Source: a virus. From it: a stretch of 64,000 nucleotides of DNA. The stretch spans positions 32,001 to 96,000 of the IMG/VR virus record IMGVR_UViG_3300012953_000017; one strand, 5' to 3'. Position 1 is the stretch's first letter. Each line of letters starts with the position of its first letter. Below are positions 10,759 through 35,626 of this stretch, in pieces. Below the pieces are notes generated by a model. It saw only the letters and a list, made by a program, of their open reading frames with translations, was not told where the DNA came from and made no database searches. A program made the translations under genes and the position numbers.

Positions 10759-11454
10759 CTAGTCTCTCTTCATGACTTTAGCGATCTTCTCAGTCTTCTT
10801 AATTCTTTCTTCAACTCTATCCCAGTTTATTTCTTTCATCATGGCAACAATGTAAGTCTTTCGATCTTCTAGGTAGTCTCTATAGTAAGCGCCCTCAGAC
10901 ACGTCTAGAACAATTATAGGAAAAGTCCCAATTGGAACATTAAGTGATTCAATGTCAACGACAAAATTCATATATCTACCTAACATGACATTATATGCAG
11001 TAACTGCATATCCACTTCTAGAGCTCATTCCACAAGCAATAAAGTCTTTTTGCCAATCATCAAAAGTTCCAAAGTCTCTCTCTAGGCGAAGAAAAGACAT
11101 CGTATCCATTGTAATTTGACTCTTTAAATCGCTAATATTTTCAAAATGGTATGCTCTGAAGAAGGCTGCATTTAAGAGGTGTGTTTCGTCAACTTTTAGC
11201 TGACGAAACTCTGACGAATATTTGTCAGCATCGTCTCTAGACGCTGTGTCAAGCTTTGCACTTATCTCATTTAAACCACTTACATGTTTCTCTAAATCTT
11301 CTTGACGTGCGCTTTTGTTTTTCGGGCTTAAAAACTCTGTATTTAGCTTGTACTTCTTTGCTTGTGTCACATATGACTCATTTACGGCTTTGTCAGGTAA
11401 GCCTAAAGATTCTCGAATGCTTTGAATTATATCATTTTCTTTGACTGTAGACAT
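10759..11454 (-). CDS. Fe/Mn superoxide dismutase-fold protein with degenerate metal ligands
   Basis: LERDFGTFDDW, PIIVLDVSEGAYY (canonical DxWEHAYY), INWDRVEER; N-terminal extension IIQSIRES...VNES. Confidence 0.7.
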   Translation of the reverse strand: MSTVKENDIIQSIRESLGLPDKAVNESYVTQAKKYKLNTEFLSPKNKSARQEDLEKHVSGLNEISAKLDTASRDDADKYSSEFRQLKVDETHLLNAAFFRAYHFENISDLKSQITMDTMSFLRLERDFGTFDDWQKDFIACGMSSRSGYAVTAYNVMLGRYMNFVVDIESLNVPIGTFPIIVLDVSEGAYYRDYLEDRKTYIVAMMKEINWDRVEERIKKTEKIAKVMKRD

Positions 11455-13496: not shown

Positions 13497-13919
13497 CTAC
13501 GACGTAAATTGGCAAACCTCTATACCACTCTCTTGAAGTATATCTAAGCCTGATGTGTCTCGATATTCGTCATAATACACGACTTTGCTTATTCCTGCAT
13601 TAACAATAGCTTTTGCACACATCTTGCACGGAGACAGTGTTACATAAAGAATCTTCTTTTTTGGGTTGTTGTAGTCAGTCTTAAGCAAAGCATTGATTTC
13701 TGCATGGAGCATCCCAGACTCACCGGGAACTGTGGATTCAACTTCATTAGGTCCGCCGGTGTGATTTCCGTTGTAACCTACTGCTAATACTTGTGTATTA
13801 TCTTCAGTCACAATGACAGCACCTACTTGATGCCTTGGATCATATGATCTTTTAGATATAAGGCATGCCATTTCCATCCACACTTCGTTCCATGTAGGTC
13901 TACTAACAGCTATACTCAT
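13497..13919 (-). CDS. dCMP deaminase
   Basis: RPTW...M, GYNG, HAEINAL and SPCKMC zinc motifs. Confidence 0.9.
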   Translation of the reverse strand: MSIAVSRPTWNEVWMEMACLISKRSYDPRHQVGAVIVTEDNTQVLAVGYNGNHTGGPNEVESTVPGESGMLHAEINALLKTDYNNPKKKILYVTLSPCKMCAKAIVNAGISKVVYYDEYRDTSGLDILQESGIEVCQFTS

Positions 13920-14759: not shown

Positions 14760-15317
14760 TTAGTCTCTCTGGTTCATGTAATTGTGGTGCTCCCAACATC
14801 TAGGTTCATATAGATCTGAGCCTCCCACAGCAATCTCGTCTAGTCCTTCTAGCTTTCTGTGTGTGTAAAAAGCGTCCCTTCCTGTAATAGGGCAGACAGC
14901 AGGGCACACTTCAATCTTGGTTGCCCATGGCATCATATCTCGGACTTCTTCAAAAACAACACCGCTGGCAGATAGCTGAAGCGAAGAAACAACGATCGTT
15001 TTGCCCGATCTAAATAGGCATAACAGAGCTTTCGATACACCTTCTATCATAAAAGCTTCGTCTACAGCAATGACGTCGACGCTATTTTCAGAATTCTGAA
15101 TGTGCTCCAGAACATCCTTACCGCAATTAACTCCAACTGCCTCAAGACTAGCGCCTGAATGTGTTCTGATTTCCACATCCGAATATCTGTCGTCCATTAT
15201 GGGCTTGAAAGCAATAATTTTTTTATTTTGATGCAAATATCTATCGACTACTGCCATCAGGCGTGTTGTCTTTGACCCAAACATTGGCCCAGTAAAAATA
15301 ATAAATTCAGGATCCAT
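14760..15317 (-). CDS. tdk: Thymidine kinase
   Basis: GPMFGSKTT P-loop, VDEA, VGG..LYEPRC. Confidence 0.9.
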   Translation of the reverse strand: MDPEFIIFTGPMFGSKTTRLMAVVDRYLHQNKKIIAFKPIMDDRYSDVEIRTHSGASLEAVGVNCGKDVLEHIQNSENSVDVIAVDEAFMIEGVSKALLCLFRSGKTIVVSSLQLSASGVVFEEVRDMMPWATKIEVCPAVCPITGRDAFYTHRKLEGLDEIAVGGSDLYEPRCWEHHNYMNQRD

Positions 15318-16390: not shown

Positions 16391-17299
16391 TTAATCAATG
16401 ATATGGGCAGAGTTCATAGCGCAGTTTAAAATCACTGTATTGTTTAAGTCTAATTCAGATCTTATTGAGGCTGCGATGTGAATTAAAAACTTGAGATCAT
16501 AAGGAAAAGTATTGACAACATCAGAAGACCTACAAACTACGTGTACATTTAGAACATTGTTGCGGAGCATTGTATGAATTAAAGATATGCAAGAATCTTG
16601 AGTGAATACAAACCTTCTTGTTGTCTTTGGATCTTGACTTCTGCCATATTCGTTGTCACCGGAAATCTCTTTTTTTATGTTTTTTAGAACACCGTTTTTT
16701 ATTGTAGCATAGTAATTCTTTTCAGGCGGATGATCCATAATCTTTGGGTCATTAAATAAATCAATCTTGTCAAACTGAAGCGACAAGTTTAATGGTGACA
16801 CTTCTTTTTTACCCGAACACGACACAAAATCAGAGATAATGCCTCCCATGTTTTCAATAGACTGATTTTCTAAATTATAAATTTGATCGACACAGCTTAA
16901 CGCTAGATCGTTTTCTGTTAAGAACCCATCTTCGACAACTATTACATTAGGCAGATGTTTAATTTTTTCTGTCTCTTCTGAAAAAATATCATACAGGCGA
17001 CGAAGTGAAGACAAATTCTGGATTTCGTCCCCTCTAAGATGATATCTGTATCTAATTACTTCCCATTCAGGCAGAAGTACTACTATCCTGTTATTGAGGT
17101 TGCACAAATCCTGCCAAAGACGGCGGCGATGGTCAACCACGTCTCGGCCGTAAAGACGAGAATAGCAAACCATGCTTAAATTAGATCTATCCTGTATGTT
17201 CCATTTGTACCCCGTCATCATATGAATCGAGTTGTACAGTGTCGTTTTTCCAGCCAGATCTGGCCCTTCTATCGTTATTGAGTTCGTTGACAATATCAT
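16391..17299 (-). CDS. Fusion of dNMP (thymidylate-type) kinase and a thymidylate-synthase-like domain with dCMP-type Asp
   Basis: N-terminal IEGPDLAGKTT and DRS; C-terminal TRR, catalytic Cys (DSCIS), RSSDVVNTFPYD, SAHII. Confidence 0.75.
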   Translation of the reverse strand: MILSTNSITIEGPDLAGKTTLYNSIHMMTGYKWNIQDRSNLSMVCYSRLYGRDVVDHRRRLWQDLCNLNNRIVVLLPEWEVIRYRYHLRGDEIQNLSSLRRLYDIFSEETEKIKHLPNVIVVEDGFLTENDLALSCVDQIYNLENQSIENMGGIISDFVSCSGKKEVSPLNLSLQFDKIDLFNDPKIMDHPPEKNYYATIKNGVLKNIKKEISGDNEYGRSQDPKTTRRFVFTQDSCISLIHTMLRNNVLNVHVVCRSSDVVNTFPYDLKFLIHIAASIRSELDLNNTVILNCAMNSAHIID

Positions 17300-17840
17300 A
17301 GTTGATATTATACACAGCTCTTGTGTGCTTTACAACACTTCGTTGTGACTCTTTAAGATCTTTTAGGTAATGCTTTCTCGTACCTAGTATGTGATCCCAC
17401 AGCGGAAATGTTACACACCAATTTGCATCTTGATTTTTCCCCATATGATGATCATAATGCCAAGGCGCATACTTTTTTGCCCAACTAGGATCTAAGTGCG
17501 ACTTTCTATGAATTAGAAAATATGCCAATGCCATGAGAATCATAGCACCCGAATACCAAGGAAAGAGAAAAAATGAAGGAATCTGAGCTACAGAGAGTAG
17601 AACTAGAGAAAGAATTTCTTTTGTTCCTTCATTCCACCCTTTGAACAGCTTAAGATAATCGTCGTCGAAGTATTCATTCTTGCGAGATTTTTTATGATGC
17701 ACTTTCCAGTGTGAAGACCAAAAACTGTTCTTTTTCTTTCCTAAACCATGAAGAACATATTTGTGTATGAGCCACTCATAAAGATTTGCTATGATGATAC
17801 CAAGTGCAATTTGTACTAAGGCACTCAGCACCATCATCAA
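17187..17840 (-). CDS. Fatty acid hydroxylase/sterol desaturase family membrane enzyme
   Basis: His boxes HKYVLH, HWKVHH, HRKSH, HYDHH; TM helices; PLWD..LGT. Confidence 0.85.
   Translation of the reverse strand: MMMVLSALVQIALGIIIANLYEWLIHKYVLHGLGKKKNSFWSSHWKVHHKKSRKNEYFDDDYLKLFKGWNEGTKEILSLVLLSVAQIPSFFLFPWYSGAMILMALAYFLIHRKSHLDPSWAKKYAPWHYDHHMGKNQDANWCVTFPLWDHILGTRKHYLKDLKESQRSVVKHTRAVYNINYDIVNELNNDRRARSGWKNDTVQLDSYDDGVQMEHTG
17307..17335 (-). promoter_or_regulatory. Sigma70-like promoter, probably giving a leaderless transcript
   Basis: TTGTAA-N17-TATAAT ending 7 nt before the ATG at 17299. Confidence 0.65.
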
Positions 17841-17943: not shown

Positions 17944-20900
17944 TCAATCAAAAGCAGTAATTTTTCTAACTTTTGCAGAAGATGTTGACATTCCCCAGTT
18001 TGCATCGTTGTGGACGTCAGCCATCCACAGTGTGTACAGCTCTGGCGGCTCACTAAAAGAACCCCAAACTCGAAGCCATCCTGTATTGTTATCCAAGTCC
18101 ATTACTTTAAACCGATAGAAAGGTTTTCCGTTCTTGGTTTTTTTAGAAATGACATCGGTTATGCAGAACCAACCTACACCCCGGGTGCCCGGGGAGACCT
18201 CAAAAATTGAATCAACATTCTTGGATTCGATTCTTCTTACAAACTCATCTGGAAAAACTAAATTGTTGCTTACACCTGATGTGAGATCGATATAATTAAG
18301 AATCTTTTCCGTACGATTCCAGTCAGGAAGGCTTGCATAGTCTTTCTTTAACATAGAAAGGATTGGCGTCAAAGTTTCGCCATTCTTTTCTGCACGCTTT
18401 ACTTGCGTCTTGGTTTTGCCATACCTCCCTTTGCGCAAAAGGTCATAGTTCTTGCCATCGGTAATGACCGCCAAAAGCTGTTTGTGATTAATCACTTCTC
18501 CAGTTTGCATCTCTGTAAGAGAGCCAAATGCTTCGATTTTGCACAAAGATGTAAAACAAGTCTTATTGAGTTTTGAATGCTTCCAAGAACCGTCTTCATT
18601 CCAAAACAAGTCGTCTAAAGATTTGTAAGGTCTCCGAATCATGATTTCTTCCATGGCTACATTTCCTACACCTTTTACAGCACTTAGAGGAGGAACGAAA
18701 GCACCTACCTCTTCAGAATAGGACCACTCATCGCCTGAATAGTTTACGTCTGAAGCAGCTATCTTGTACCCATATTGCTTGATCTCAGACATTGCCTTTG
18801 CAAGACCTTTTGGGCTGTTATTTTCAGACTGAAGAATTGTTGCTAGCCACTCATGCTCGTAGTGTGTGTGGAGCCACGCTGCGTAATAAGAATCGATGGC
18901 GTAAGACACTGCGTGTGATTTATTAAAGCCATATACAGAGAACGCTTCAATAGTCTTCCAGAGAGCTTCTGTGATACTTCTGTCGATGCCATGGAGGGAG
19001 TGCGCGCCTTCGACAAACTTCTTACGTGCTGCCTCTCGTTCACCGCCTTTTTTGCCCATCGTGTCTAGCGACTTCTTAACCAATGTCTTTCGAAGTTTAT
19101 CAGATTCACCGGGGGAGAAGCCAGCTAGTTCCACAGCAAGTGTCATAAACTGCTCTTGAAAAACAACAAAGTTAAATGTTGGACCTAGAACTTTTTCAAT
19201 CACAGGATGATCATACTTGATCTCTGATGCATTCTTTTTAGCTTTTACATATTTCCTATGGACATTTGCTTTTAAAGGTCCTGGGCGGTAAATAGCTGTT
19301 AATGCAGCCAACTCTGTGATGGTTGTCGGCTTGGCGGCTAGACAGAAGCGCCTTGCTCCGACAGCTGTAAATTGAAATACGCCTGTGAATCGAGCATTGT
19401 GGTAAACATGTTCCCACACATCAGGATCATCTTGTTGATTATATCTACAATTTAAGTGCTTGTCAAAGAATGCCTTAATGTCGGCAAAAGAAGGACTTGG
19501 GCTTCCTTGCTTTTTTAGAATACGCCCAATACAGTTTTCAACATCCTTTAGCAGGGTGAGTCCTAGAAAGTCGAACTTTAGAAAACCATTGTCTTCTAGA
19601 TTCCGGAAGTTCATACCTTCTGTCCATGGAGTTTGCAAGTCGCCACGTACTCCAATGATTGGCATTGTTTTTGCAAGATCATCTGGAGGTGCAATGATTA
19701 CGCCGCCGGCGTGTCTTCCGATGGATCGATTTTCCATGAAAAGTGTTTCAACGTGCCTACCAACTTCAGGATACTTTTCCATGAATTCACGATAACCCTT
19801 AGAGTACTTAAGGCAGTCTTCATGTTTTAGGACAAACACAGACTTTTCTTGATTCTCATCCTTCGCAAACTTCATAACCTCGTCTTGCAAAGGTCCGGTC
19901 ATCTTGTTCACTTCTGCAAAGTCGATACCGTAAAACTTAGCAATGTCCTTAATCAGTGACTTTAGCTTGAGTGTGTTAAAGTTAGAGACAGGAATAACAG
20001 CATCATCACCAAACAACTCCCGGGAAGCATCAATAAGCGCATCTCGATCGCCGGCGTCGGTGTCAATGTCAGGCCATGAAGTTCTATGGCGCCCTAGGAA
20101 CCGCGACCAGAGCAAACCATGCGGAAGTGGATCGATCTGAGTGATTCCTAGTAAATAGTTTACCAGTGAGCCGGCTCCGGAGCCTCTTCCTGGGCCGAAA
20201 AGCGTGCGTTTTTCAGCAAGATGAAATATCTTGTACATGGCCAAGAAGTAAGCTTCATATCCGAGGTACTTAATGTCAGACATTTCTTCTTTCATGCGTT
20301 CGACATATTCAGGCTTTGAAGCCAAGTCCTCTCTAATCATCGCCTCTTTAACAAGGTCCGCCAGCATTTTAAAAGCCGGCTTTTCTGGAGATCCAAACTT
20401 TGGAAGTTTTACACTAGTGTCAATCCACGTGTCTTCGCACTTTTGCCACGCAATATCATGAGTGCGCTCAATAGCATCACGAACTGTTTCCTCGTACCCT
20501 TTGTAGAAATCATATTCCGCATATCCTTGGTGGAACTCTTCCCACATCTGCTGTGCATTTTTAGGGTACAGCTTACATTTTAAGTCTTCTTCTTTTGGAA
20601 GCATGCTTTGGTCAAGCTTAGCACCCATCCATCCGAGCTTTTTATAAAGCTCGCGTGCTTGCCACTTTTGTGGATCGGGAAAGTGTGAGTCAGCTGTGGC
20701 GATAAGAGGAATATTGGTCTTTTTAGAAAGCTCTAAGAGACACCGATTTGTCAGGTGCTGTGCAGGAAGGTCGTTAAACTGCATTTCTAGGAAAAAGTTA
20801 TCCGGCCCCACACAATCGACAAACCGGTCTGTCATATTTTCTAACCTAGACATGATTGGATTGTAGTCGCCGGGACTATTCATCAAGTCAGGATGTAGTT

Positions 20901-21582
20901 CATCAAACATCATTCCGCCGAACTGTCTGTAAATCAGACCGGAAGCTAAGCCACCTACACAAGCTGTAGAAACCACTAAGCCTTCACCATGCTCTTTAAG
21001 CATCTTGTAATCAATTCTAGGAAAGCGATAAAAACCGTGCTTATACGACTTTTTAACAAGTGTAAAGAGGTTGCCTAGACCTACCTGATTTTTGGCGACA
21101 ACGACAAGATGGTAATAACGCTTCCATTCAGGCTTGTTCCCTCTGGACCGTTTGGTCTCTTCTTCGTCTTCAATTACGTGACCGCCCTGCTCGACTTCCT
21201 GGTCGGCGATGATTACGGTTTTTTCAGTCGAGAGCTTTTCTTTTTGCTTTGCACTCTTTGCGTCTTTGATAGCTTGACGGTGCGCTTCGTAAGACACTTT
21301 CCAGTCTTCCAAAGAAGGTACAAAGTAAAACTCAACACCATACAGTTGTCGATATTTCCGGCCAGCTTTCTGCATTTTAACAGTATGTGATCTAGCATGT
21401 GCAAGACCAGATCCGTTTCCATGATCAGTTAAGGCCCAAGCATCCATTCCTTGTGCATCACTTAGCACAAAATCGATATGCTCTTTAGGATATCCTAGGC
21501 CATCAAATGTGCTAAAAGATGAATGTGCATGAAGACCCACAAATCTTGTGGGTGGCCTGATATCTGTGATAATGTTTGACAT
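17944..21582 (-). CDS. dnaE: DNA polymerase III alpha subunit (family C)
   Basis: PHP motifs LHAHS, TDHG, ADSH; GRGSGAGSL; catalytic PDIDTD; GRHAGG; KFDFLGL; YGFNKSH; C-terminal OB fold. GGAGG RBS favours ATG 21582 over 21615. Confidence 0.95.
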   Translation of the reverse strand: MSNIITDIRPPTRFVGLHAHSSFSTFDGLGYPKEHIDFVLSDAQGMDAWALTDHGNGSGLAHARSHTVKMQKAGRKYRQLYGVEFYFVPSLEDWKVSYEAHRQAIKDAKSAKQKEKLSTEKTVIIADQEVEQGGHVIEDEEETKRSRGNKPEWKRYYHLVVVAKNQVGLGNLFTLVKKSYKHGFYRFPRIDYKMLKEHGEGLVVSTACVGGLASGLIYRQFGGMMFDELHPDLMNSPGDYNPIMSRLENMTDRFVDCVGPDNFFLEMQFNDLPAQHLTNRCLLELSKKTNIPLIATADSHFPDPQKWQARELYKKLGWMGAKLDQSMLPKEEDLKCKLYPKNAQQMWEEFHQGYAEYDFYKGYEETVRDAIERTHDIAWQKCEDTWIDTSVKLPKFGSPEKPAFKMLADLVKEAMIREDLASKPEYVERMKEEMSDIKYLGYEAYFLAMYKIFHLAEKRTLFGPGRGSGAGSLVNYLLGITQIDPLPHGLLWSRFLGRHRTSWPDIDTDAGDRDALIDASRELFGDDAVIPVSNFNTLKLKSLIKDIAKFYGIDFAEVNKMTGPLQDEVMKFAKDENQEKSVFVLKHEDCLKYSKGYREFMEKYPEVGRHVETLFMENRSIGRHAGGVIIAPPDDLAKTMPIIGVRGDLQTPWTEGMNFRNLEDNGFLKFDFLGLTLLKDVENCIGRILKKQGSPSPSFADIKAFFDKHLNCRYNQQDDPDVWEHVYHNARFTGVFQFTAVGARRFCLAAKPTTITELAALTAIYRPGPLKANVHRKYVKAKKNASEIKYDHPVIEKVLGPTFNFVVFQEQFMTLAVELAGFSPGESDKLRKTLVKKSLDTMGKKGGEREAARKKFVEGAHSLHGIDRSITEALWKTIEAFSVYGFNKSHAVSYAIDSYYAAWLHTHYEHEWLATILQSENNSPKGLAKAMSEIKQYGYKIAASDVNYSGDEWSYSEEVGAFVPPLSAVKGVGNVAMEEIMIRRPYKSLDDLFWNEDGSWKHSKLNKTCFTSLCKIEAFGSLTEMQTGEVINHKQLLAVITDGKNYDLLRKGRYGKTKTQVKRAEKNGETLTPILSMLKKDYASLPDWNRTEKILNYIDLTSGVSNNLVFPDEFVRRIESKNVDSIFEVSPGTRGVGWFCITDVISKKTKNGKPFYRFKVMDLDNNTGWLRVWGSFSEPPELYTLWMADVHNDANWGMSTSSAKVRKITAFD

Positions 21583-21600
21583 GTAGCCTCCGGAAGACAT

Positions 21601-21634
21601 AAAAAAACCTGGCATAGATATTCTATACCAGGTT
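21601..21634 (-). terminator. Intrinsic terminator hairpin overlapping a promoter
   Basis: AACCTGGTATAG-AATAT-CTATGCCAGGTT followed by a T run; GTGTAA-N17-TAGAAT overlaps it (21648-21620). Confidence 0.6.
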
Positions 21635-21656: not shown

Positions 21657-22628
21657 CTAAAAGAATTGTGTAAGATCGATATTTTTTCTCTCGGCTTCCT
21701 GAAGATGTTTGAGCGGATTATAATCTTTACCTTCATTATTCAGAATGCTTTCCCAAGAAGACATTATTCCTTCTCTGAGAGAATAGCTAGGCTTCCAAGC
21801 TGTAATATTTCTAAACTTATCACAGCTAAGAAGGTGATTCCCTAGATAGTCAGTTTGAGGATGCCACTTAATTTTCTTCTGAATATCTAGGCCGGAGACT
21901 TCGGACATCATGTCGACTATTTTTCCAACCTCAACAGGTGTTTCTGCAGCAATGTTAAAATCGTACCCCCACAACCCTAAGTGACAGGCAAGTGCAACGG
22001 AATCACAAAAATCTTCTACGTGCAAATAATCTTTTGTTTTGGCTGGATCTAAAAACATGTCTATGCTGTCAACGCTGTCATCTAGAGCAGCGAAGAAAGA
22101 TTTCGCTATGAGTGAGTTCATATCTCCAACGCCGCCGTAAGCAAATAAGGGACGCATGATAAGCCATCGGTCGCAATGAGACTTGACAACAAACTCAGAG
22201 GCTAGCTTATGTGCGCCATAGAGAGTATTAGGGCCTAAAGTTGAGGCTTCAACAATTTGTCGATCTTGATACAGACTTGTATCGTATATGACAGTAGTGC
22301 CCATGTAGCACACAGGAATCCCTAGACTATTTGCTGCTCTACAAATTGTGTAAGTTCCTGTCACGTTTGAATTAGTAGCTTCATGTGGATTTAGAGCTAC
22401 AACATCTGTGCCTACCATAGCTGCATTGTGTACAACTAGCCCAATTTCGTTCTCTGAAAGCGCTTTTGACCAAGCTGCCTCAGAGTTTCTCCAGACGCAC
22501 AATTCACCAGAAGGCGTTTTTTCTAGGCTGTCTGAAGTTAGAGTAACTGCCTCTTCGCCTACTTTAGCAAAAGACTTTACTAGATTTCTTGCGATAAAAC
22601 CGTTTTCACCCGTGACAAGAACTTTCAC
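21657..22628 (-). CDS. Second NAD-dependent NDP-sugar epimerase/dehydratase (divergent)
   Basis: VLVTGENGFIA, HNAA, YGAHK (YxxxK), KDYLHVED. Confidence 0.85.
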   Translation of the reverse strand: MKVLVTGENGFIARNLVKSFAKVGEEAVTLTSDSLEKTPSGELCVWRNSEAAWSKALSENEIGLVVHNAAMVGTDVVALNPHEATNSNVTGTYTICRAANSLGIPVCYMGTTVIYDTSLYQDRQIVEASTLGPNTLYGAHKLASEFVVKSHCDRWLIMRPLFAYGGVGDMNSLIAKSFFAALDDSVDSIDMFLDPAKTKDYLHVEDFCDSVALACHLGLWGYDFNIAAETPVEVGKIVDMMSEVSGLDIQKKIKWHPQTDYLGNHLLSCDKFRNITAWKPSYSLREGIMSSWESILNNEGKDYNPLKHLQEAERKNIDLTQFF

Positions 22629-22640
22629 TTTTGCTCCTTA

Positions 22641-23087
22641 TTACTCGATGTCTAGATCGTATGGTTCCTCAATAAGAGTACCCGCTTGTTTACATCTGTC
22701 CAAGTAATCCTCAAGCTGCTCAAAAGATGTGCATACTTTGACACCACTACGTGCTAGCATTAGGTTGAACTTTGCTCCTTCAGGTAGACCTTGGCAGAAA
22801 TAAACAATTGGCACATTATTTGCATGAGCATAACCTGCCTCCCAAATTGTGCCGATATCCTTATCACGTGTGTTGACAATAAGAAAATCTGCTGTTTTAA
22901 TGTGGTGAAGGTTACCTGAGAAGACCTCATCCTGTACGCTCTTCGGTGCGTCAGGTGGACACACAAAAATTCTGCGTGGTGAGGCGAGGTCGATCCAGTC
23001 ACGATCGTCGCAAATCTTCTCTAGACTTGTTAGTTCTTCTGCTTGTACTGGATTAAACCAGCCTGATGCTAAATAAATCTTTTTCAT
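22641..23087 (-). CDS. Nucleoside 2-deoxyribosyltransferase / nucleotide N-glycosidase family protein
   Basis: KIYLASGWF, D.GT.WEAGYA, FNLML motifs. Confidence 0.85.
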   Translation of the reverse strand: MKKIYLASGWFNPVQAEELTSLEKICDDRDWIDLASPRRIFVCPPDAPKSVQDEVFSGNLHHIKTADFLIVNTRDKDIGTIWEAGYAHANNVPIVYFCQGLPEGAKFNLMLARSGVKVCTSFEQLEDYLDRCKQAGTLIEEPYDLDIE

Positions 23088-23099
23088 TATTGCCTCTTT

Positions 23100-24071
23100 C
23101 TAAAACTTGTTGTTATAGTCATCTTTGAGTTGGGCGAACTCCGACATGAGATCTCGCCACATAGTTGTAAATACTTTCTCTCCAGTGCCGTGAGTACCAT
23201 TAAGTTCTTCGCGGCGGCACTGGTAGATCGTGTCGTCCGGGTGGAAGTCAAAAGTATCATTCTTAGGTTCTGGCCAGTAAAGATTTGTGCCACGACTGAT
23301 CCACTTGTCGCCCTCTTTCACCCTAAAGGTCTTGATATAGTGCATATCAGGTGTATCAAACTTGAACACGTTTGTTAGCTCTGGAATTGCCTTGCATGCC
23401 TCAATTGCCATTCTTGCGGCCAAAATGTTATCAGCTGCTGGCTGAATCTGAACATCTTGGCGTTGACGAACAAATCCAATGAGATCTTTTAGATTAAGGC
23501 GCATGTAATAAAAAGAAGTTAATGCTTTTGGCAAAATCATACGAGCATCCATCATGGAAACAACTTTAGAATCCGTCATGTCAGCATAAAGATCCTTAGC
23601 TTCTAAGACTAGCTTTTTATATCGCTCTAAAAACGCCGGAGAATTTTCTACAGACTCAGGAATTACTGCTGCATCATCGCGTAGATCTCGATCGCCGGTG
23701 CATTGAGCTGCGAAAGAGCCGGCTCGATGGCGAATGATATGGGTCACCTCTTGAAAAGAAAGACCGGAGAGACGAAAGGTAAATCCTAGACACTCCATTG
23801 GAGTTGGTAGTGCTCGGAACTGAAGAACGTCAAGCAAGTTTTTGCTTTTTAAACTGTCTTCTGCAGTGTCCGGATTAATTTCGTCAGGGGTGTCGGCCCA
23901 AGTTGCCTTAACATAATGCCAAGCAACGTTTCTGGCCTGCTCAGTAGAAGGTGCATCTACCAATTCTACCTTTAAAGCTTCTAGGTTATTTTCGAACTTG
24001 GTCGTAGGTTCCTGACCAAACTTGAGATCCATGGGGAGAACGATAGGTTCTAGATCTGTATTTTGTGGCAT
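23100..24071 (-). CDS. Divergent ThyX-fold flavoprotein (second ThyX paralogue)
   Basis: P.E...FTF...GLS...THIIRHR..SF, DARMILP, N.KDL..F..QR; signature altered to RHRAGSFAAQCTGDR. Confidence 0.75.
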   Translation of the reverse strand: MPQNTDLEPIVLPMDLKFGQEPTTKFENNLEALKVELVDAPSTEQARNVAWHYVKATWADTPDEINPDTAEDSLKSKNLLDVLQFRALPTPMECLGFTFRLSGLSFQEVTHIIRHRAGSFAAQCTGDRDLRDDAAVIPESVENSPAFLERYKKLVLEAKDLYADMTDSKVVSMMDARMILPKALTSFYYMRLNLKDLIGFVRQRQDVQIQPAADNILAARMAIEACKAIPELTNVFKFDTPDMHYIKTFRVKEGDKWISRGTNLYWPEPKNDTFDFHPDDTIYQCRREELNGTHGTGEKVFTTMWRDLMSEFAQLKDDYNNKF

Positions 24072-25669: not shown

Positions 25670-26311
25670 TTGATAGTGCAAGAAAATCGTCCTGACAACG
25701 AAGAAGTCTTTAACGCTCTGACACATGGGGTTGGCGCGATTTTGGCTTTGGTTGGCGGAGTTTTTTTAATTGGACAATCTTGGGAAATAGGGCCCTGGCA
25801 CTTTGCTGGGGCTTTTTTGTATTCAGTTTCTCTTTTTTCAACTTTTTGTGCGTCAGCTTTTTACCATATCTCAACAGATCCTTTAATAAAGCATAGGTAC
25901 AGAGTTCTGGACCATTCATCCATTTACTTGGCAATAGCAGGGAGTTACTCTCCTATACTTCTAGTAAGTCTAATGGACAATTGGGGACTGCTATATTGTG
26001 TTGTAGTGTGGGTGTTGGCAATTGCAGGAATTCTGTACAAGTCTAAATACACAGGAAAGCATGAGGAATATTCACTCGGAACTTATCTAATGATGGGGTG
26101 GATAGGGCTCTTGATTGTGCATGACATTATAGAAACAATACCTAGCGCAGGATTATATTGGCTTTTAGCAGGCGGCATTATCTACACATCCGGGGCTTAT
26201 TTTTATTACAAAGACGATAAAAGATGGTACCACACCATATGGCATTTTTTTGTACTAGGCGGCAGTATGTGTCACTATATTTTGGTCTCTAAGTACATTA
26301 TACAACCTTAG
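25670..26311 (+). CDS. Hemolysin III / PAQR family membrane protein
   Basis: EE.FNALTHG, SAFYH, LDHSSIYLAIAGSYSP, YLMMGW, HTIWHFFVLGGS..H; seven TM helices. Confidence 0.92.
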   Translation: MIVQENRPDNEEVFNALTHGVGAILALVGGVFLIGQSWEIGPWHFAGAFLYSVSLFSTFCASAFYHISTDPLIKHRYRVLDHSSIYLAIAGSYSPILLVSLMDNWGLLYCVVVWVLAIAGILYKSKYTGKHEEYSLGTYLMMGWIGLLIVHDIIETIPSAGLYWLLAGGIIYTSGAYFYYKDDKRWYHTIWHFFVLGGSMCHYILVSKYIIQP

Positions 26312-27107: not shown

Positions 27108-27509
27108 CTAGTAGCCTGTGTTAAGACGGTCGTGAATAACTTCATCCTTTTTGCGATATGCGTCAAAAAGCTCATCAGCTGTAACGCCAGTAAGAACTAA
27201 TAAGGACAAAAAATAGTTAAAAGCGTCAACAATTTCTTCTAGAAACTCTTCTCTATCAAATTCGTCTACTTCGGTCTTCTTGTGGGGTTTCCAGTTTTTT
27301 AAATGCTGAAGTGCTTCAAACATTTCTTCGACACCTTTCAAAGCAGTATCTCTTAACACTTGCTGAGACTTCTTTTGTGTCAAAGAGACAGGCCATTCTG
27401 GGTATATGTCTGGGTTTGCCTTACTAATTTCTACCATAAATGATTCACGCAGGCGAAACATTTCAGACAGCTTATCTTTATTACTCAGACTCATTTGTCT
27501 CCTCAACAA
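27108..27509 (-). CDS. All-alpha (dimeric-type) dUTPase/dCTPase
   Basis: EEMFEA...NWKPHK...LEEIVDAFNY...K......R motifs. Confidence 0.8.
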   Translation of the reverse strand: MLRRQMSLSNKDKLSEMFRLRESFMVEISKANPDIYPEWPVSLTQKKSQQVLRDTALKGVEEMFEALQHLKNWKPHKKTEVDEFDREEFLEEIVDAFNYFLSLLVLTGVTADELFDAYRKKDEVIHDRLNTGY

Positions 27510-27756
27510 GTTCTTGTACCTCAGAAATCATAGCTTCTAAATTGTTATTAAAAGTCTTTTCATACTCTGATTCTAGGTCAAGAACACCTTCATTACTTAC
27601 AAACTTAATAAGTCGTAAGTTATCAGTGATGTCTGTCCCAGTTAATATTGCAACTTGTAATACTTTGGCAATTTGTGCAATTGCAGAATCTGATAGCTTG
27701 TAGCAGTCAAACATATTATTCTCCTTTTTTTTTATTTCTGAATTTTTGGTACCCAA
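27481..27756 (-). CDS. Hypothetical protein (likely start 27714)
   Basis: AAGGAG RBS before the internal ATG; LQVAILTGTDI core. Confidence 0.55.
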   Translation of the reverse strand: MGTKNSEIKKKENNMFDCYKLSDSAIAQIAKVLQVAILTGTDITDNLRLIKFVSNEGVLDLESEYEKTFNNNLEAMISEVQELVEETNESE

Positions 27757-28538
27757 TGTGTTGTCCTTCCATCAGGTGTCTTTTCTTTAACAACCTCATT
27801 ACCTTCAGGGTCGTTCTTTTGATTATATACCAGGAACCTCTGTGCGTATTGGCCCAATGTTCCGTTAAAATTTTCGTATGTTCTTATTGTAGCACCGCCT
27901 GACCGAAAGCTTTCTCTCAATATTTTTTTAATTGCTGAGTTAAGTGATGACAAATCTTTGTCAGAAAGAGAGTCAACTGTCCTGTGTGGTGATATCTTGG
28001 ACAGCCACAAAGAGTCTGCTTTTACATAGTTTCCGACGCCAGCCACCACTGACTGGTTCATTATAGCTTTAGTGATAGGCCACTTAGACTTCTTTCTAAT
28101 GGCTTGAAAAAACACTTCATCTTTTACATCAGTGGCTAGCATATCCGGCCCTAATGCCTTGAGTTTTTCTAACAAATAATGTTTTCCTCTGACTATTTTA
28201 ACAGTGCCAAAATTTCTTTGATCGTTGAAGTACACCTTACTTTTATCGTCAAAACAAAACTCGACTCTAGAATGCTTTTTTTTATTAGGTGACCAATGGC
28301 CGGTCATTCCTAGCGTGTTCCAAATATAGTGATCATTTTTTAGCATCCAGTATAAAAACTTGCCATGCACACCTACACCGGTGACTTTTGCCGGCAGCGT
28401 ACCTACAGATTCTAGAAGTCCTGGAATTGGCTTTTTCGTATATCTGCCGCTTAGCACATTTATGCTTTTTAAAGTCTTTGCGGAGACAAATTCAGACAAG
28501 TCTAATCCGTATCTTCTTACTTCAGGTCCTTCAGGCAC
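27732..28538 (-). CDS. Fpg/Nei family DNA glycosylase lacking the Cys4 zinc finger
   Basis: MPEGPEV, HGK, LGMTG, D.RNFG, LGPD, H2TH GVGNY; C-terminal GRTTHWVP with no cysteines. Confidence 0.9.
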   Translation of the reverse strand: MPEGPEVRRYGLDLSEFVSAKTLKSINVLSGRYTKKPIPGLLESVGTLPAKVTGVGVHGKFLYWMLKNDHYIWNTLGMTGHWSPNKKKHSRVEFCFDDKSKVYFNDQRNFGTVKIVRGKHYLLEKLKALGPDMLATDVKDEVFFQAIRKKSKWPITKAIMNQSVVAGVGNYVKADSLWLSKISPHRTVDSLSDKDLSSLNSAIKKILRESFRSGGATIRTYENFNGTLGQYAQRFLVYNQKNDPEGNEVVKEKTPDGRTTHWVPKIQK

Positions 28539-28950
28539 AGTTTTCCTCCAGCCAGTCTCGATATTTATTCAAGGCATGATCGTTAGGGCGTACATTTTTC
28601 CAGTCACCTACACAGAAAACTCTCCACGCATCCTCAGCGTACTTTCCGCATCCGTAAAGCTCTTTAGGCGATGACCACTCCTTCTCAACGTATTCTCTAG
28701 AGAATCTCCGAAGGGTCTCTGTACGTCTCTTCCACATTCCTAATGGTTTTATAAGGCTTTGCAAATCGTTAACATCTGCGTCCTTCATAGAATCTGCTGT
28801 GGGATACTTACGAAAAAGCTTCTCGTACACTTTGTCAACTTGTTTTCTAGAAGTTTGATTATGAAGAAGACACGCCACTAGTATTTTCCACTCATTAGGC
28901 CACAAATCTTCTTGCAGCATTCCGACTGGTGATCGAGGTGGTCTCCACAT
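28531..28950 (-). CDS. MBD4-like HhH mismatch (T/U:G) DNA glycosylase
   Basis: W.PPRSP..LQE.L....WK.L...L.NQT, GCGKYAEDA.R.FC, DHAL..Y.DWL match my recollection of the MBD4 glycosylase domain. Confidence 0.85.
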   Translation of the reverse strand: MWRPPRSPVGMLQEDLWPNEWKILVACLLHNQTSRKQVDKVYEKLFRKYPTADSMKDADVNDLQSLIKPLGMWKRRTETLRRFSREYVEKEWSSPKELYGCGKYAEDAWRVFCVGDWKNVRPNDHALNKYRDWLEENCA

Positions 28951-34912: not shown

Positions 34913-35626
34913 CTAGAAATCTTTGTTATCTCTAAACGCTTTAACTGTTATAGGCCAAACTTCTTCTGCTATCGTCAATAAAGCTTGAGCTACTTGTTGA
35001 ATTTCCCACTGAGCGCCCTCGTGAATCCTAAGCTCTATGAATTTCATTAAGTTGCTAAGGTTGCAAGTACCATAGTACTCAGTGTAGAGGTTCTGGGGCA
35101 GGACTCCTCGAGCTTGCTCTCTGCAGACACCTGATTCTAATAGATTTTCATAAAGGTTTAGTGAAGATTTGTGGTGTGATCGAACAGCAGCGCTAGCGCT
35201 GAGAACGCCTCCATCTTCGTACCGGTACAAAACAGGATCATCGGTCTTGTTAGTGCTGGCCTGTCGATTTGATTGATGCTGAGATCTAAAAACACTTGGT
35301 TCATAGAATCTTAAGTCTACTTCAGTGTATCTTCGACTTATCTCATTATAAGCCCAAGTTCTATGGCGATGGTGCTGACTACGAATGAAAAGAGGCACCA
35401 CGAAACGACAAGTGAGAACGTTGTGCTCCAAAGTGGAAGTGTGGCGATGCTTAATAAGATAATCAATAAGTCTTTCATCTTTGTCATCTAGAATATCCTT
35501 TTGCTTTCCAAAACTAACTCTGGCTGCATTAACAACAGTTAAGTCATGCCCCATATGACTAACATAATCAACGCGACCGATGCCGTCTGAATAGAGGTCT
35601 ATAGACTTTATCTTAGTTTCTGTCAT
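34913..35626 (-). CDS. thyX: Flavin-dependent thymidylate synthase
   Basis: VNAARVSF, HTSTLEH, RHRTWAYNEISRRY, EQARGVLP, AQWEI. Confidence 0.95.
   Translation of the reverse strand: MTETKIKSIDLYSDGIGRVDYVSHMGHDLTVVNAARVSFGKQKDILDDKDERLIDYLIKHRHTSTLEHNVLTCRFVVPLFIRSQHHRHRTWAYNEISRRYTEVDLRFYEPSVFRSQHQSNRQASTNKTDDPVLYRYEDGGVLSASAAVRSHHKSSLNLYENLLESGVCREQARGVLPQNLYTEYYGTCNLSNLMKFIELRIHEGAQWEIQQVAQALLTIAEEVWPITVKAFRDNKDF

What the first reader, a model, noticed from the sequence alone, without database searches (positions are those of the whole stretch)
16391..17299. dNMP kinase fused to a minimal thymidylate-synthase domain with dCMP specificity residue
The C-terminal part aligns by eye with E. 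coli ThyA: DPKTTRR to DPDSRR, Cys to C146, RSSDVVNTFPYD to RSCDVFLGLPFN, SAHI to DTHL. Asp replaces Asn177, the known switch to dCMP seen in T4 dCMP hydroxymethylase. The loop before the Cys is shortened and much of the N-terminal folate-binding region seems missing, so the C5 substituent may not come from methylene-THF. Fusion to a kinase suggests channelling of the modified dNMP to the diphosphate. The next gene downstream is an NDP-sugar epimerase.
Basis: partly seen in the sequence, partly recalled or inferred. Interest (0 to 1): 0.78.

Follow-up and report, generated by a model that had tools for sequence, protein, structure and literature searches.

The report
Phage kinase fused to mini thymidylate-synthase
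An uncultured marine giant phage encodes one protein that joins a small nucleotide kinase to a stripped-down thymidylate-synthase-type domain built to bind dCMP, so it probably makes and phosphorylates an altered cytosine nucleotide for phage DNA, though the chemistry is untested.

Summary
ORF 16391..17299 (-) encodes 302 aa. Residues 1-145 are a YorR/thymidylate-kinase-like P-loop kinase. Residues 146-302 are a pared-down thymidylate-synthase (TS) fold. The catalytic Cys237, Arg228/Arg229, Arg257/Ser258 and His299 are invariant in 174 of 174 relatives, and Asp268 at the dUMP/dCMP switch position in 173 of 174.

The closest structures are the flavin/O2 dCMP 5-hydroxylase (9iqc/9iqu), ThyA, MilA and T4 dCMP hydroxymethylase (Z 9.0-11.4; next unrelated 5.9). 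A homodimer is predicted, with Arg228 reaching the partner's Arg257/Ser258 as in TS.

- The published "D169N" marker of 5-hydroxylases flips at least 19 times within this family. This protein has Asp.
- The two halves also occur as separate, adjacent, translationally coupled genes.
- The kinase half is elsewhere fused to a dUTPase_2-type pyrophosphatase.
- Stand-alone mini-TS proteins of 164-218 aa exist.

The link to the neighbouring sugar epimerase is not supported.

Best reading: a bifunctional enzyme that makes a C5-modified dCMP and its diphosphate, with the C5 group unresolved.

This scan met the same family earlier in four other genomes. My four literature searches found no description of it.

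The parts
16391..17299 (-). Whole ORF, 302 aa plus stop (P0001): kinase fused to a mini-TS domain
   Evidence: full-length AlphaFold2 model pLDDT 94.7, pTM 0.89
16865..17299 (-). N-terminal P-loop nucleotide-kinase domain, residues 1-145
   Evidence: YorR 3kb2 Z 13.8 and 2axp Z 13.5, thymidylate kinases Z about 11.9; profile against PDB gives YorR E 3.7e-7; phrog_761 'thymidylate kinase' 6.8e-7
17240..17266 (-). P-loop, G12-T20 (GPDLAGKTT)
   Evidence: G12, G17 and K18 in 174 of 174 relatives
17183..17191 (-). DRS motif, D37-S39 (counterpart of the DRY/DRF motif of thymidylate kinases and YorR)
   Evidence: D37 and R38 in 174 of 174; aligned to YorR's DRF
17027..17047 (-). Lid-like Arg-rich segment, R85-D91 (RxxxRGD)
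   Evidence: R85, R89 and D91 in 174 of 174; aligned to YorR's RxxxRGDE
16394..16864 (-). C-terminal pared-down thymidylate-synthase-fold domain, residues 146-302
16613..16618 (-). Arg228-Arg229, counterpart of the TS Arg pair that is given to the partner subunit's phosphate site
   Evidence: 174 of 174; in the dimer model R228 touches R257 and S258 of the other chain
16589..16591 (-). Cys237, counterpart of the TS catalytic nucleophile (E. coli C146, T4 C148)
   Evidence: 174 of 174; aligned
16520..16531 (-). R257-S258-S259-D260. D260 is the counterpart of E. coli D169, the published hydroxylase-marker position
   Evidence: R257 and S258 in 174 of 174; position 260 is D in 84, N in 70 and E in 20, with 19 changes on the tree
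16496..16498 (-). Asp268, counterpart of E. coli N177 and T4 D179 (cytosine versus uracil switch)
   Evidence: 173 of 174, the remaining row has a gap; aligned to T4 D179
16403..16411 (-). S297-A298-H299 motif, three residues before the C-terminus
   Evidence: H299 in 174 of 174; RB69 gp48 and 9iqu carry SAH at the aligned place, T4 gp42 carries SLH
17187..17299 (-). 113-nt overlap of the gene's 5' end with the 3' end of the upstream fatty-acid-hydroxylase-family ORF (17187..17840)
   Evidence: reproduced with no differences in an independent contig spanning 17161..17727
17944..21615 (-). Context: DnaE-type DNA polymerase III alpha, upstream neighbour in all related loci
   Evidence: 67 of 67 loci; annotated DnaE-like in the phage hits
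15307..16335 (-). Context: NAD-dependent NDP-sugar epimerase/dehydratase, next gene downstream
   Evidence: Pfam 5.1e-48; present in 41 of 67 loci
14760..15317 (-). Context: thymidine kinase
   Evidence: Pfam TK 1.5e-32; 52 of 67 loci
13497..13919 (-). Context: zinc dCMP deaminase
   Evidence: Pfam 2.2e-24; 55 of 67 loci
27108..27509 (-). Context: all-alpha NTP pyrophosphatase (dUTPase_2/MazG type), candidate dCTPase/dUTPase
   Evidence: Pfam dUTPase_2 3.1e-5; homologues beside stand-alone mini-TS genes

Best explanation
A bifunctional, homodimeric enzyme of the phage's deoxypyrimidine supply.

The C-terminal domain is a catalytically competent but heavily pared-down member of the thymidylate-synthase superfamily.
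- It binds dCMP. Asp268 reads the cytosine. Arg257/Ser258, together with Arg228/Arg229 from the partner subunit, hold the phosphate.
- Cys237 attacks C6.
- A group is then installed at C5.

The N-terminal YorR/thymidylate-kinase-like domain phosphorylates the product to the diphosphate, so that it reaches the adjacent DnaE-type replicase as a triphosphate.

Shown here: the two folds, the conserved residues, the predicted dimer, and the gene linkage.

Inferred: the substrate, the order of the two reactions, and the product.

The C5 group is open. Within this reading my odds are about 45% flavin/O2 5-hydroxylation (AfhB/RB69 gp48-like), about 30% one-carbon transfer (hydroxymethyl or methyl, T4 gp42-like), and about 25% something else.
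For: TS fold:
- C-domain model against 48,161 chains: 9iqc_A Z 11.4 (rmsd 3.0, 142 aligned), Brucella ThyA 11.2, MilA 10.0, T4 dCH 9.0. The next unrelated chain is at 5.9.
- Foldseek top hits are 9iqu at 1.4e-7 and 9iqc at 5.1e-7, with at least 392 hits at E<=1e-3.
- ESM Atlas: 28 of 30 feature hits are Thymidylat_synt clusters.

Conserved residues among 174 relatives:
- C237, R228, R229, R257, S258 and H299 in 174 of 174.
- D268 and E193 in 173 of 174.
- Kinase residues G12, G17, K18, D37, R38, R85, R89 and D91 in 174 of 174.

Asp268 aligns to T4 D179, and the D179N mutant chain scores lower.

Dimer:
- ipSAE 0.87 in 3 of 3 runs; best of 3 controls 0.00.
- The mark was reached by 20 of 30 proteins solved as pairs of one chain and by 1 of 23 solved as single chains.
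- The runs agree in at least 98% of contacts, and the partner's pLDDT is at least 92.
- R228 touches R257 and S258 of the other chain.
- TS dimers are solved many times, so this pass may reflect likeness only.

Linkage of the two halves:
- In L074 a 155-aa kinase gene (family kinase HMM 3.9e-18) overlaps by 13 nt a 215-aa mini-TS gene.
- In L075 the two are separated by a HAD/NT5C gene.
- In L076 the kinase is fused to dUTPase_2 instead.

Precedent: Table 1 of PMC13326640 lists a YorR/TMPK-like 'nucleotide kinase' two to three genes from the proven 5hodCMP synthase in DLP3, RB69 and RL38J1.

A dTMP route already exists here (two ThyX, no ThyA), so the domain is not needed for dTMP.

Context: the gene lies next to DnaE in 67 of 67 loci, with dCMP deaminase in 55 and TK in 52.
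Against: - No biochemistry exists for any member.
- Pfam and NCBIfam do not place the domain in a TS family above threshold: PF00303 in 0 of 47 members, and TIGR03283 at 20.6 bits against a cut-off of 174.55.
- About 40% of a normal TS is missing, including everything after the His motif. A cofactor site may therefore not exist.
- The kinase may not be a dNMP kinase. Its best matches are YorR (function unknown) and deoxynucleoside kinases as much as thymidylate kinases. Pfam gives AAA_28 in 19, Thymidylate_kin in 13 and dNK in 1 of 47 members.
- In RB69 the step 5hodCMP to 5hodCDP was shown for gp159, not for the cluster kinase gp45.
- The published hydroxylase marker (D169N) is not met by this protein (D260).
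- Loci with stand-alone mini-TS genes also carry a second, Pfam-detectable cytosine-type TS homologue. There the mini-TS may not be the primary C5-modifying enzyme.
- No glycosyltransferase, DHFR or flavin reductase is in the held 42% of the genome.
Confidence: 0.55

Rival explanations
1. The kinase is the real enzyme, a phage dTMP or general dNMP kinase, or a deoxycytidine kinase that feeds dCMP forward. The mini-TS domain is then a dCMP- or nucleotide-binding regulatory or dimerisation module with no C5 chemistry.
For: - The module (TK, dCMP deaminase, two ThyX) otherwise lacks a dTMP kinase.
- The mini-TS has lost about 40% of the TS fold, including the C-terminal segment.
- In the dimer model both domains sit on the twofold axis, so the TS sheet could serve only to dimerise.
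- The kinase half occurs with other partners, such as dUTPase_2 in L076.
Against: - A binding-only module would not keep the nucleophilic Cys in 174 of 174 members, together with E193, the RS motif, D268 and H299.
- Stand-alone mini-TS proteins keep the same residues without any kinase.
Confidence: 0.15
2. The mini-TS acts on an already modified pyrimidine nucleotide rather than on dCMP. For example, it could re-activate a 5-hydroxymethyl nucleotide through the C6 adduct so that another nucleophile replaces the hydroxyl. Another enzyme, such as the divergent second ThyX or a separate TS homologue, would make the first modification.
For: - Loci with stand-alone mini-TS genes also encode a Pfam-detectable TS homologue with Asp at the N177 position (L074 2039..2785 at 8e-8; L075 4471..5115 at 1.4e-7).
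- A divergent ThyX (68 bits against 163 for the other copy) lies 6 kb from the gene here and in 32 of 67 loci.
- The domain lacks the TS parts that close over folate.
Against: - No second TS homologue is in the 67 fused loci or in this record, and PF00303 is found in 0 of 4 larger related records.
- No such enzyme chemistry is known for the TS fold on nucleotides (recalled, not searched).
- The presence of the second ThyX is not universal.
Confidence: 0.1
3. It is an ordinary thymidylate synthase (dUMP to dTMP) of unusually small size, fused to thymidylate kinase.
For: - There is a weak NCBIfam hit to the short archaeal TS model TIGR03283 (2.5e-4 full length, 5.1e-5 C-domain; 6 of 55 members).
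- The kinase resembles thymidylate kinase.
Against: - Asp rather than Asn sits at the N177 position in 173 of 174 members. According to PMC13326640, Asp there confers preference for dCMP.
- The phage has two ThyX genes.
- The TIGR03283 score of 20.6 bits is far below its cut-off of 174.55.
Confidence: 0.05

Closest known systems
Flavin/O2-dependent dCMP 5-hydroxylases, also called 5hodCMP synthases: phage HY126 AfhB (PDB 9iqu, 9iqc), RB69 gp48, DLP3 gp80, RL38J1 gp216
   Same: - TS fold. It is the best structural match (Z 11.4; Foldseek 1.4e-7).
- Cys, the Arg pair, the RS motif and Asp at the N177 position.
- An SAH motif close to a short C-terminus.
- A YorR/TMPK-like kinase encoded two to three genes away in the three characterised clusters.
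   Different: - This domain has 157 aa against 217-238. It has internal deletions, including 16 residues before the Cys.
- It carries Asp, not the diagnostic Asn, at the D169 position.
- It is fused to the kinase.
- No arabinose or sugar-activation genes or glycosyltransferases are nearby.
- hhalign probability is only 86.5%.
T4 gp42 dCMP hydroxymethylase (PDB 1b49/1b5d) and MilA CMP hydroxymethylase (5jnh)
   Same: - It is the best sequence-profile match (PDB search E 8.5e-4; hhalign 94%, E 1.4e-7).
- Asp at both the D169 and the N177 positions.
- Found in a gene set that also has a dCMP deaminase and a MazG-type pyrophosphatase, as T4 has cd and gp56. The T4 roles are recalled; the annotation of gp56 in RB69 was seen.
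   Different: - Structural Z is 9.0 (T4) and 10.0 (MilA), no better than ThyA.
- The domain ends 3 residues after the His, whereas T4 gp42 continues for about 29 more.
- It has Gln, not Asp or Glu, three residues before the Cys.
- Folate dependence is unknown.
Bacillus subtilis SPbeta YorR (PDB 2axp, 3kb2) and thymidylate kinases
   Same: N-terminal domain:
- Profile E 3.7e-7 and Z 13.8 to YorR.
- P-loop, DR motif and RxxxRGD segment aligned.
- SPbeta-type and these phages both use a DnaE-type polymerase. The SPbeta part is recalled.
   Different: - YorR is a stand-alone protein of unknown function.
- This domain is below Pfam's thymidylate-kinase threshold (12.3 bits against 27).
Stand-alone mini-TS proteins of uncultured viruses (P0229-P0266; loci L074-L078)
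   Same: - The same pared-down domain, with the same invariant E, E, Y, R, C, S, R, RS, D and H.
- The same neighbours: kinase, MazG-type pyrophosphatase, dCMP deaminase, and DnaE or PolB.
   Different: - They are not fused (164-218 aa).
- They lack the ExxGxNxY loop of the fused family.
- They are accompanied by a second TS homologue.

Membership tests
Thymidylate synthase superfamily (fold level) | TS alpha/beta fold | tested here: met
   The top seven of 48,161 chains are all TS-superfamily, Z 9.0-11.4 with 132-142 of 157 residues aligned; the next is at Z 5.9. At least 392 Foldseek hits at E<=1e-3.
Thymidylate synthase superfamily (fold level) | Catalytic Cys, RS motif and Arg pair at the aligned positions | tested here: met
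   C237, R257, S258, R228 and R229 in 174 of 174; aligned to T4 gp42 and RB69 gp48.
Thymidylate synthase superfamily (fold level) | Homodimer through the beta-sheet, with the Arg pair donated across the interface | tested here: met
   Prediction only. ipSAE 0.87 in 3 of 3 runs, best of 3 controls 0.00. The mark was reached by 20 of 30 proteins solved as pairs and 1 of 23 solved as single chains. R228 touches R257 and S258 of the other chain. The pass may reflect likeness to solved TS dimers.
Thymidylate synthase, Pfam PF00303 / NCBIfam TIGR03283 | Score above the curated cut-off | tested here: not met
   PF00303 in 0 of 47 members at E<=0.01. TIGR03283 at 20.6 bits against a cut-off of 174.55; 6 of 55 C-domains at E<=0.01.
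Thymidylate synthase ThyA (dUMP to dTMP) | Asn at the E. coli N177 position, and the C-terminal segment after the His motif | tested here: not met
   Asp in 173 of 174. The domain maps only up to residue 210 of Brucella ThyA and ends 3 residues after H299.
5hodCMP synthase (AfhB / RB69 gp48 type) | Asp at the N177 position (dCMP substrate) | tested here: met
   D268; the rule is taken from PMC13326640.
5hodCMP synthase (AfhB / RB69 gp48 type) | Asn at the E. coli D169 position, the diagnostic proposed in PMC13326640 | tested here: not met
   D260 in this protein. In the family it is D in 84, N in 70 and E in 20 of 174, with 19 changes on the tree, so the marker may not transfer to this family.
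5hodCMP synthase (AfhB / RB69 gp48 type) | Flavin cofactor and O2-derived 5-hydroxyl | not testable with these tools
   Needs biochemistry. He et al. (Nat Chem Biol 2026) is not held.
5hodCMP synthase (AfhB / RB69 gp48 type) | Cluster with sugar-activation genes and DNA glycosyltransferases | tested here: not met
   No glycosyltransferase among the 50 ORFs scanned with Pfam. GT1, GT2 and GT1_4 are absent from the 120-kb record, but the record is only 42% complete. Two SDR sugar enzymes are present.
dCMP hydroxymethylase (T4 gp42 type) | Asp at both the D169 and the N177 positions | tested here: met
   D260 and D268.
dCMP hydroxymethylase (T4 gp42 type) | Acidic residue at the E. coli L143 position (three residues before the Cys) | tested here: inconclusive
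   Q234 here. In the family: D 57, Q 49, S 25, N 18, E 12, G 7 of 174. The position is polar, but not acidic in this protein.
dCMP hydroxymethylase (T4 gp42 type) | Methylene-tetrahydrofolate as one-carbon donor | not testable with these tools
   Needs biochemistry. The TS segments after the His motif are absent.
dNMP / thymidylate kinase (N-terminal domain) | P-loop, DR motif, Arg-rich lid, NMP-kinase fold | tested here: met
   The motifs are invariant in 174 of 174. Fold Z 13.8 to YorR and about 11.9 to thymidylate kinases.
dNMP / thymidylate kinase (N-terminal domain) | Pfam PF02223 above cut-off; phosphorylation of a dNMP | tested here: not met
   12.3 bits against a cut-off of 27. 13 of 47 members match at E<=0.01, while 19 match AAA_28 and 1 matches dNK. 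The substrate is not testable here.

The most novel reading that the evidence does not exclude
The mini-TS is a new catalytic branch of the TS superfamily that has shed the folate-closing parts. It would install, or exchange, a C5 group on a cytosine nucleotide by chemistry that is neither the known folate route nor the known flavin route. With its own kinase, it would supply a so-far undescribed cytosine derivative to the DNA of a widespread lineage of marine and freshwater jumbo phages.
Probability: 0.15. Interest if true: 0.85.

Novelty: new variant of a known kind. Interest (0 to 1): 0.6.

Why it matters
TS-superfamily enzymes are the entry points to nearly all known pyrimidine hypermodifications of phage DNA.

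This family is large:
- at least 310 proteins at 90% clustering;
- 422 clusters at 50% identity for the C-domain.

It is virus-restricted. Only 1 locus was found among the representative genomes of 185,579 species. It sits beside the replicase in every locus examined.

If it is active, many uncultured aquatic jumbo phages carry non-canonical cytosine. That would affect their resistance to restriction and CRISPR, and how well metagenomic sequencing recovers them.

It would therefore define the minimal catalytic core of the fold.

The lability of the D169 position within one orthologous family is a caution for using D169N alone to predict 5-hydroxycytosine synthases.

Tried and rejected
Searches that gave nothing useful:
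- Single-sequence phmmer against PDB gave only a chance GST hit, E 0.77.
- tblastn of the protein against 50,697 phage records gave no match. The polymerase's best cultured relative is 29% identical, so no cultured relative is available.

Epimerase link. I considered it and rejected it as unsupported:
- The epimerase is in 41 of 67 loci.
- It does not track the D/N/E state of position 260: D 15 of 22, E 7 of 7, N 18 of 35.

Families sought in the own record, none found: GT1, GT2, GT1_4, DHFR and flavin reductase. The record is 42% complete, so this is weak.

Related records:
- GT1 and GT2 were found in 1 of 4 (G002, more than 95 kb from the gene) and not in the 87%-complete G001.
- PF00303 was found in 0 of 4.
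- The record holding L034 is not held and was not searched.

Similarity of RB69 gp45 to the kinase domain is confined to the P-loop and DR motif (hhalign 24 columns; 16 bits). It is not enough to call them orthologues.

Sequencing runs:
- No RNA holder is listed.
- All runs are kept as contigs, so neither expression, nor the start codon, nor base-modification signatures could be examined.

Start codon:
- No Shine-Dalgarno-like sequence stands before the ATG at 17299.
- Gene callers elsewhere chose internal starts: the 260-278-aa entries, and the Atlas record that starts at residue 27.
- I keep the 302-aa reading because the P-loop is intact and matches the family consensus.

Literature:
- Searches found no description of a kinase-TS fusion or a minimal TS domain.
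- Of PMC13326640 I read the outline, sections 24, 25, 27, 28 and 29, and passages found by term search. Its supplements are closed and may hold the IMG/VR homologues that were tested.
- He et al. (Nat Chem Biol 2026) was seen only as a reference.
Full report
THE OBJECT

The window is part of an IMG/VR virus record of 119,919 bp, estimated 42% complete. Nearly all genes lie on the minus strand.

ORF 16391..17299 (-) encodes 302 aa. Contigs of four other runs from three studies match it, with no differences in the long pieces. One 567-nt contig spans the 113-nt overlap between the gene's 5' end and the upstream fatty-acid-hydroxylase-family ORF, so the overlap is not an assembly slip.

No close cultured relative exists. 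The protein has no tblastn match in 50,697 phage records. The DnaE-type polymerase next door is at most 29% identical to any of them.

TWO DOMAINS

Standard libraries barely see the protein:
- Pfam gives only sub-threshold P-loop hits and no TS domain.
- PHROGs gives 'thymidylate kinase' at 6.8e-7 and TS at 0.012.
- NCBIfam gives the short archaeal TS model TIGR03283 at 2.5e-4, far below its cut-off.

A profile of 47 homologues is clearer. It hits YorR of SPbeta (E 3.7e-7) with residues 16-110. It hits T4 dCMP hydroxymethylase (E 0.016) with residues 235-288. That alignment puts Cys237 on the T4 catalytic Cys, RSSD on RSND, and Asp268 on T4 Asp179. The D179N mutant chain scores lower.

With the C-domain alone (alignment A2, 55 sequences):
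- T4 scores 8.5e-4.
- The AfhB-type chains 9iqu and 9iqc score 0.1, including a shared SAH motif.
- hhalign gives 94% against T4 gp42 and 86.5% against RB69 gp48.

Both hhalign alignments show 14-16 residues missing before the Cys in this family.

STRUCTURE

The full-length AlphaFold2 model is confident (pLDDT 94.7, pTM 0.89). Residues 2-155 match YorR (Z 13.8 and 13.5), deoxyadenosine kinases (12.0-12.8) and thymidylate kinases (about 11.9).

The C-domain modelled alone (pLDDT 93.5) was aligned to 48,161 PDB representatives. The seven best are all TS-superfamily chains:
- 9iqc_A, Z 11.4, aligned to chain residues 13..227 of 234;
- Brucella ThyA, Z 11.2, up to residue 210;
- two further bacterial ThyA chains (Z 10.4 and 10.1) and the TS half of a plant DHFR-TS (Z 10.1);
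- MilA, Z 10.0;
- T4 dCH, Z 9.0.
The eighth chain is unrelated, at Z 5.9.

Foldseek ranks the dCMP hydroxylase AfhB first (1.4e-7).

The domain is therefore a TS fold reduced to 157 residues. It spans an AfhB-type chain end to end with internal deletions, and it lacks everything that ThyA has after the His motif.

CONSERVATION

I aligned 174 sequences: P0001, 64 complete ORFs from viral loci, and 109 database proteins of at least 290 aa. I left out 3 incomplete loci and 11 shorter database proteins. In this set:
- C237, R228, R229, R257, S258 and H299 are invariant.
- D268 and E193 are present in 173 of 174.
- The kinase residues G12, G17, K18, D37, R38, R85, R89 and D91 are invariant.

This is the pattern of two working active sites, not of a decayed domain.

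DIMER

Two copies of the full-length protein are predicted to pair:
- ipSAE is 0.87 in 3 of 3 runs. The best of 3 controls is 0.00.
- The mark was reached by 20 of 30 proteins solved as pairs of one chain and by 1 of 23 solved as single chains.
- The runs agree in at least 98% of contacts, and pLDDT is at least 92.

The interface is the TS beta-sheet (228-258, 294-299). R228 of one chain touches R257 and S258 of the other. That is the TS arrangement of a shared phosphate site. The kinase domains also touch each other (residues 6-63).

TS dimers are textbook structures, so this pass may reflect likeness rather than independent evidence.

WHICH CHEMISTRY

PMC13326640 (sections 24 and 28 read) states three rules:
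- Asp at the E. coli N177 position confers dCMP preference.
- A polar or acidic residue at L143 goes with non-methyl products.
- Asn at D169 marks the flavin/O2 5-hydroxy-dCMP synthases.

This protein has Asp268, Gln234 and Asp260. It is cytosine-type but lacks the hydroxylase marker.

Across the family the D169 position is D in 84, N in 70 and E in 20 sequences. On a FastTree of the 174 sequences, with that column left out, it changes state 19 times. At least 13 changes are forced by well-supported branches, and the shuffled mean is 69.7. This protein sits in a clade of 68 rows (56 D, 12 N).

An orthologous family in one conserved gene context is unlikely to switch cofactor that often. So either the marker does not apply here, or D and N are interchangeable in this pared-down site.

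Structure slightly favours the hydroxylase type (short C-terminus, SAH motif, top rank). Sequence profiles slightly favour the hydroxymethylase type. I leave the product open.

GENE CONTEXT

67 related viral loci were fetched. Counts of neighbours among the 67:

| Neighbour | Loci |
|---|---|
| DnaE-type polymerase, upstream | 67 |
| dCMP deaminase | 55 |
| Thymidine kinase | 52 |
| Epimerase | 41 |
| DHH phosphoesterase | 37 |
| Nucleoside 2-deoxyribosyltransferase-family protein | 36 |
| Divergent second ThyX | 32 |
| dUTPase_2/MazG-type pyrophosphatase | 23 |
| Fatty-acid hydroxylase | 1 |

In the 64 of these loci with a complete ORF, distances to the neighbours were measured, and the polymerase often lies within 60 nt of the gene.

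The record has two ThyX genes and no ThyA, so dTMP synthesis is covered without this gene.

The set resembles the gene sets with which T4 (recalled) and, per PMC13326640, RB69 replace a pyrimidine: a pyrophosphatase, a deaminase, a TS homologue and a kinase.

- The epimerase is optional and does not follow the D/N/E state.
- No glycosyltransferase was found in the record (50 ORFs by Pfam; three GT families).
- An 87%-complete relative has neither GT1 nor GT2.

SPLIT AND ALTERNATIVE FORMS (NEW HERE)

The C-domain profile against 1.84 billion representatives finds 422 proteins at E<=1e-3 (180 at <=1e-10, 75 at <=1e-30). Of the best 150, 92 have both domains (median length 302 aa) and 58 have the TS part only. 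Many of the 58 are fragments. About two dozen, of 164-218 aa, start with Met and form a distinct stand-alone group with the same invariant residues.

Five viral loci for these were fetched:
- In L074 a 155-aa kinase gene (family kinase HMM 3.9e-18) ends 13 nt inside the start of a 215-aa mini-TS gene, with a GAGG before the ATG. They are two genes, translationally coupled, in the same order as the fusion.
- In L075 the order is mini-TS, HAD/NT5C phosphatase, kinase, MazG-type pyrophosphatase, DnaE.
- In L076 the kinase is fused to a dUTPase_2 domain instead.
- L077 and L078 are near-identical copies of one locus. They show no kinase at E<=1.

So the kinase and the mini-TS are linked by fusion, by adjacency, and by shared partners. 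This is the strongest evidence that they act in one pathway.

Table 1 of PMC13326640 gives an independent parallel. In DLP3, RB69 and RL38J1, a YorR/TMPK-like 'nucleotide kinase' lies two to three genes from the proven 5hodCMP synthase. Its function is not shown there, and in RB69 the 5hodCMP kinase activity was shown for gp159.

A COMPLICATION

The stand-alone loci also carry a second, Pfam-detectable TS homologue with Asp at the N177 position. In those phages the mini-TS may therefore do something other than the first C5 modification.

No such second homologue is in the 67 fused loci or in this record, nor in four larger related records.

STANDING

This scan has met the family before, in four other genomes, and follow-up agents reached the same general reading. 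My results agree and add the points above.

Four literature searches found no published description.

I class it as a new variant of a known kind: a TS-superfamily dCMP-modifying enzyme, minimal and fused to its kinase. Biochemistry is needed to name the product.

Noticed in passing
window 23100..24071 (-): A second, divergent ThyX homologue: 323 aa, 68 bits against 163 bits for the copy at 34913..35626. It lies next to a nucleoside 2-deoxyribosyltransferase-family gene (22641..23087). It is present in 32 of 67 related loci, and beside a cytosine-type TS homologue in L074. It could be a modifying enzyme rather than a dTMP synthase.
   Followed up: partly
window 17187..17840 (-): A fatty-acid-hydroxylase-family ORF is inserted between DnaE and the fusion gene, and its last 113 nt overlap the fusion gene. 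It is found in only 1 of 67 related loci. The overlap is reproduced in an independent contig.
   Followed up: partly
L076 7230..8210 (+): The same small kinase is fused to a dUTPase_2/MazG-type pyrophosphatase domain (326 aa) in another uncultured virus.
   Followed up: partly
L074 2039..2785 and L075 4471..5115 (+): Short TS homologues (248 and 214 aa) that Pfam detects, with Asp at the N177 position. They lie in the same clusters as stand-alone mini-TS genes, giving two cytosine-type TS-fold proteins per cluster.
   Followed up: partly
window 27732..28950 (-): Two DNA glycosylase genes lie side by side, Fpg/Nei type and HhH-GPD type, downstream of a dUTPase_2/MazG-type pyrophosphatase gene (27108..27509).
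   Followed up: no
window 21657..22628 (-): A second SDR sugar-nucleotide enzyme (RmlD/epimerase type) lies just upstream of DnaE. It is present in 29 of 67 related loci.
   Followed up: no
window 25670..26311 (+): A haemolysin-III-family membrane protein gene. It is one of only three plus-strand ORFs that survived my overlap filter (120 aa or more) across the 120-kb record, and the only one inside the window.
   Followed up: no
window 10759..11454 (-): An ORF with an Fe/Mn superoxide dismutase C-terminal domain (1.4e-16), conserved in 42 of 67 related loci.
   Followed up: no
L071 and L072 (own record, bases 1-32100): Cell-like genes in the left part of the record: GroEL-type chaperonin, sigma-70, peptide deformylase, GMP reductase/IMPDH, a PLP-dependent enzyme, a PP-loop ATPase, an ATP-dependent DNA ligase and a GH25 lysozyme.
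   Followed up: no
L079 5001..5888: The only hit among the representative genomes of 185,579 species is a 26-kb contig of a MAG labelled as a Methanobacteriota archaeon. It is probably a viral contig binned with the MAG.
   Followed up: no
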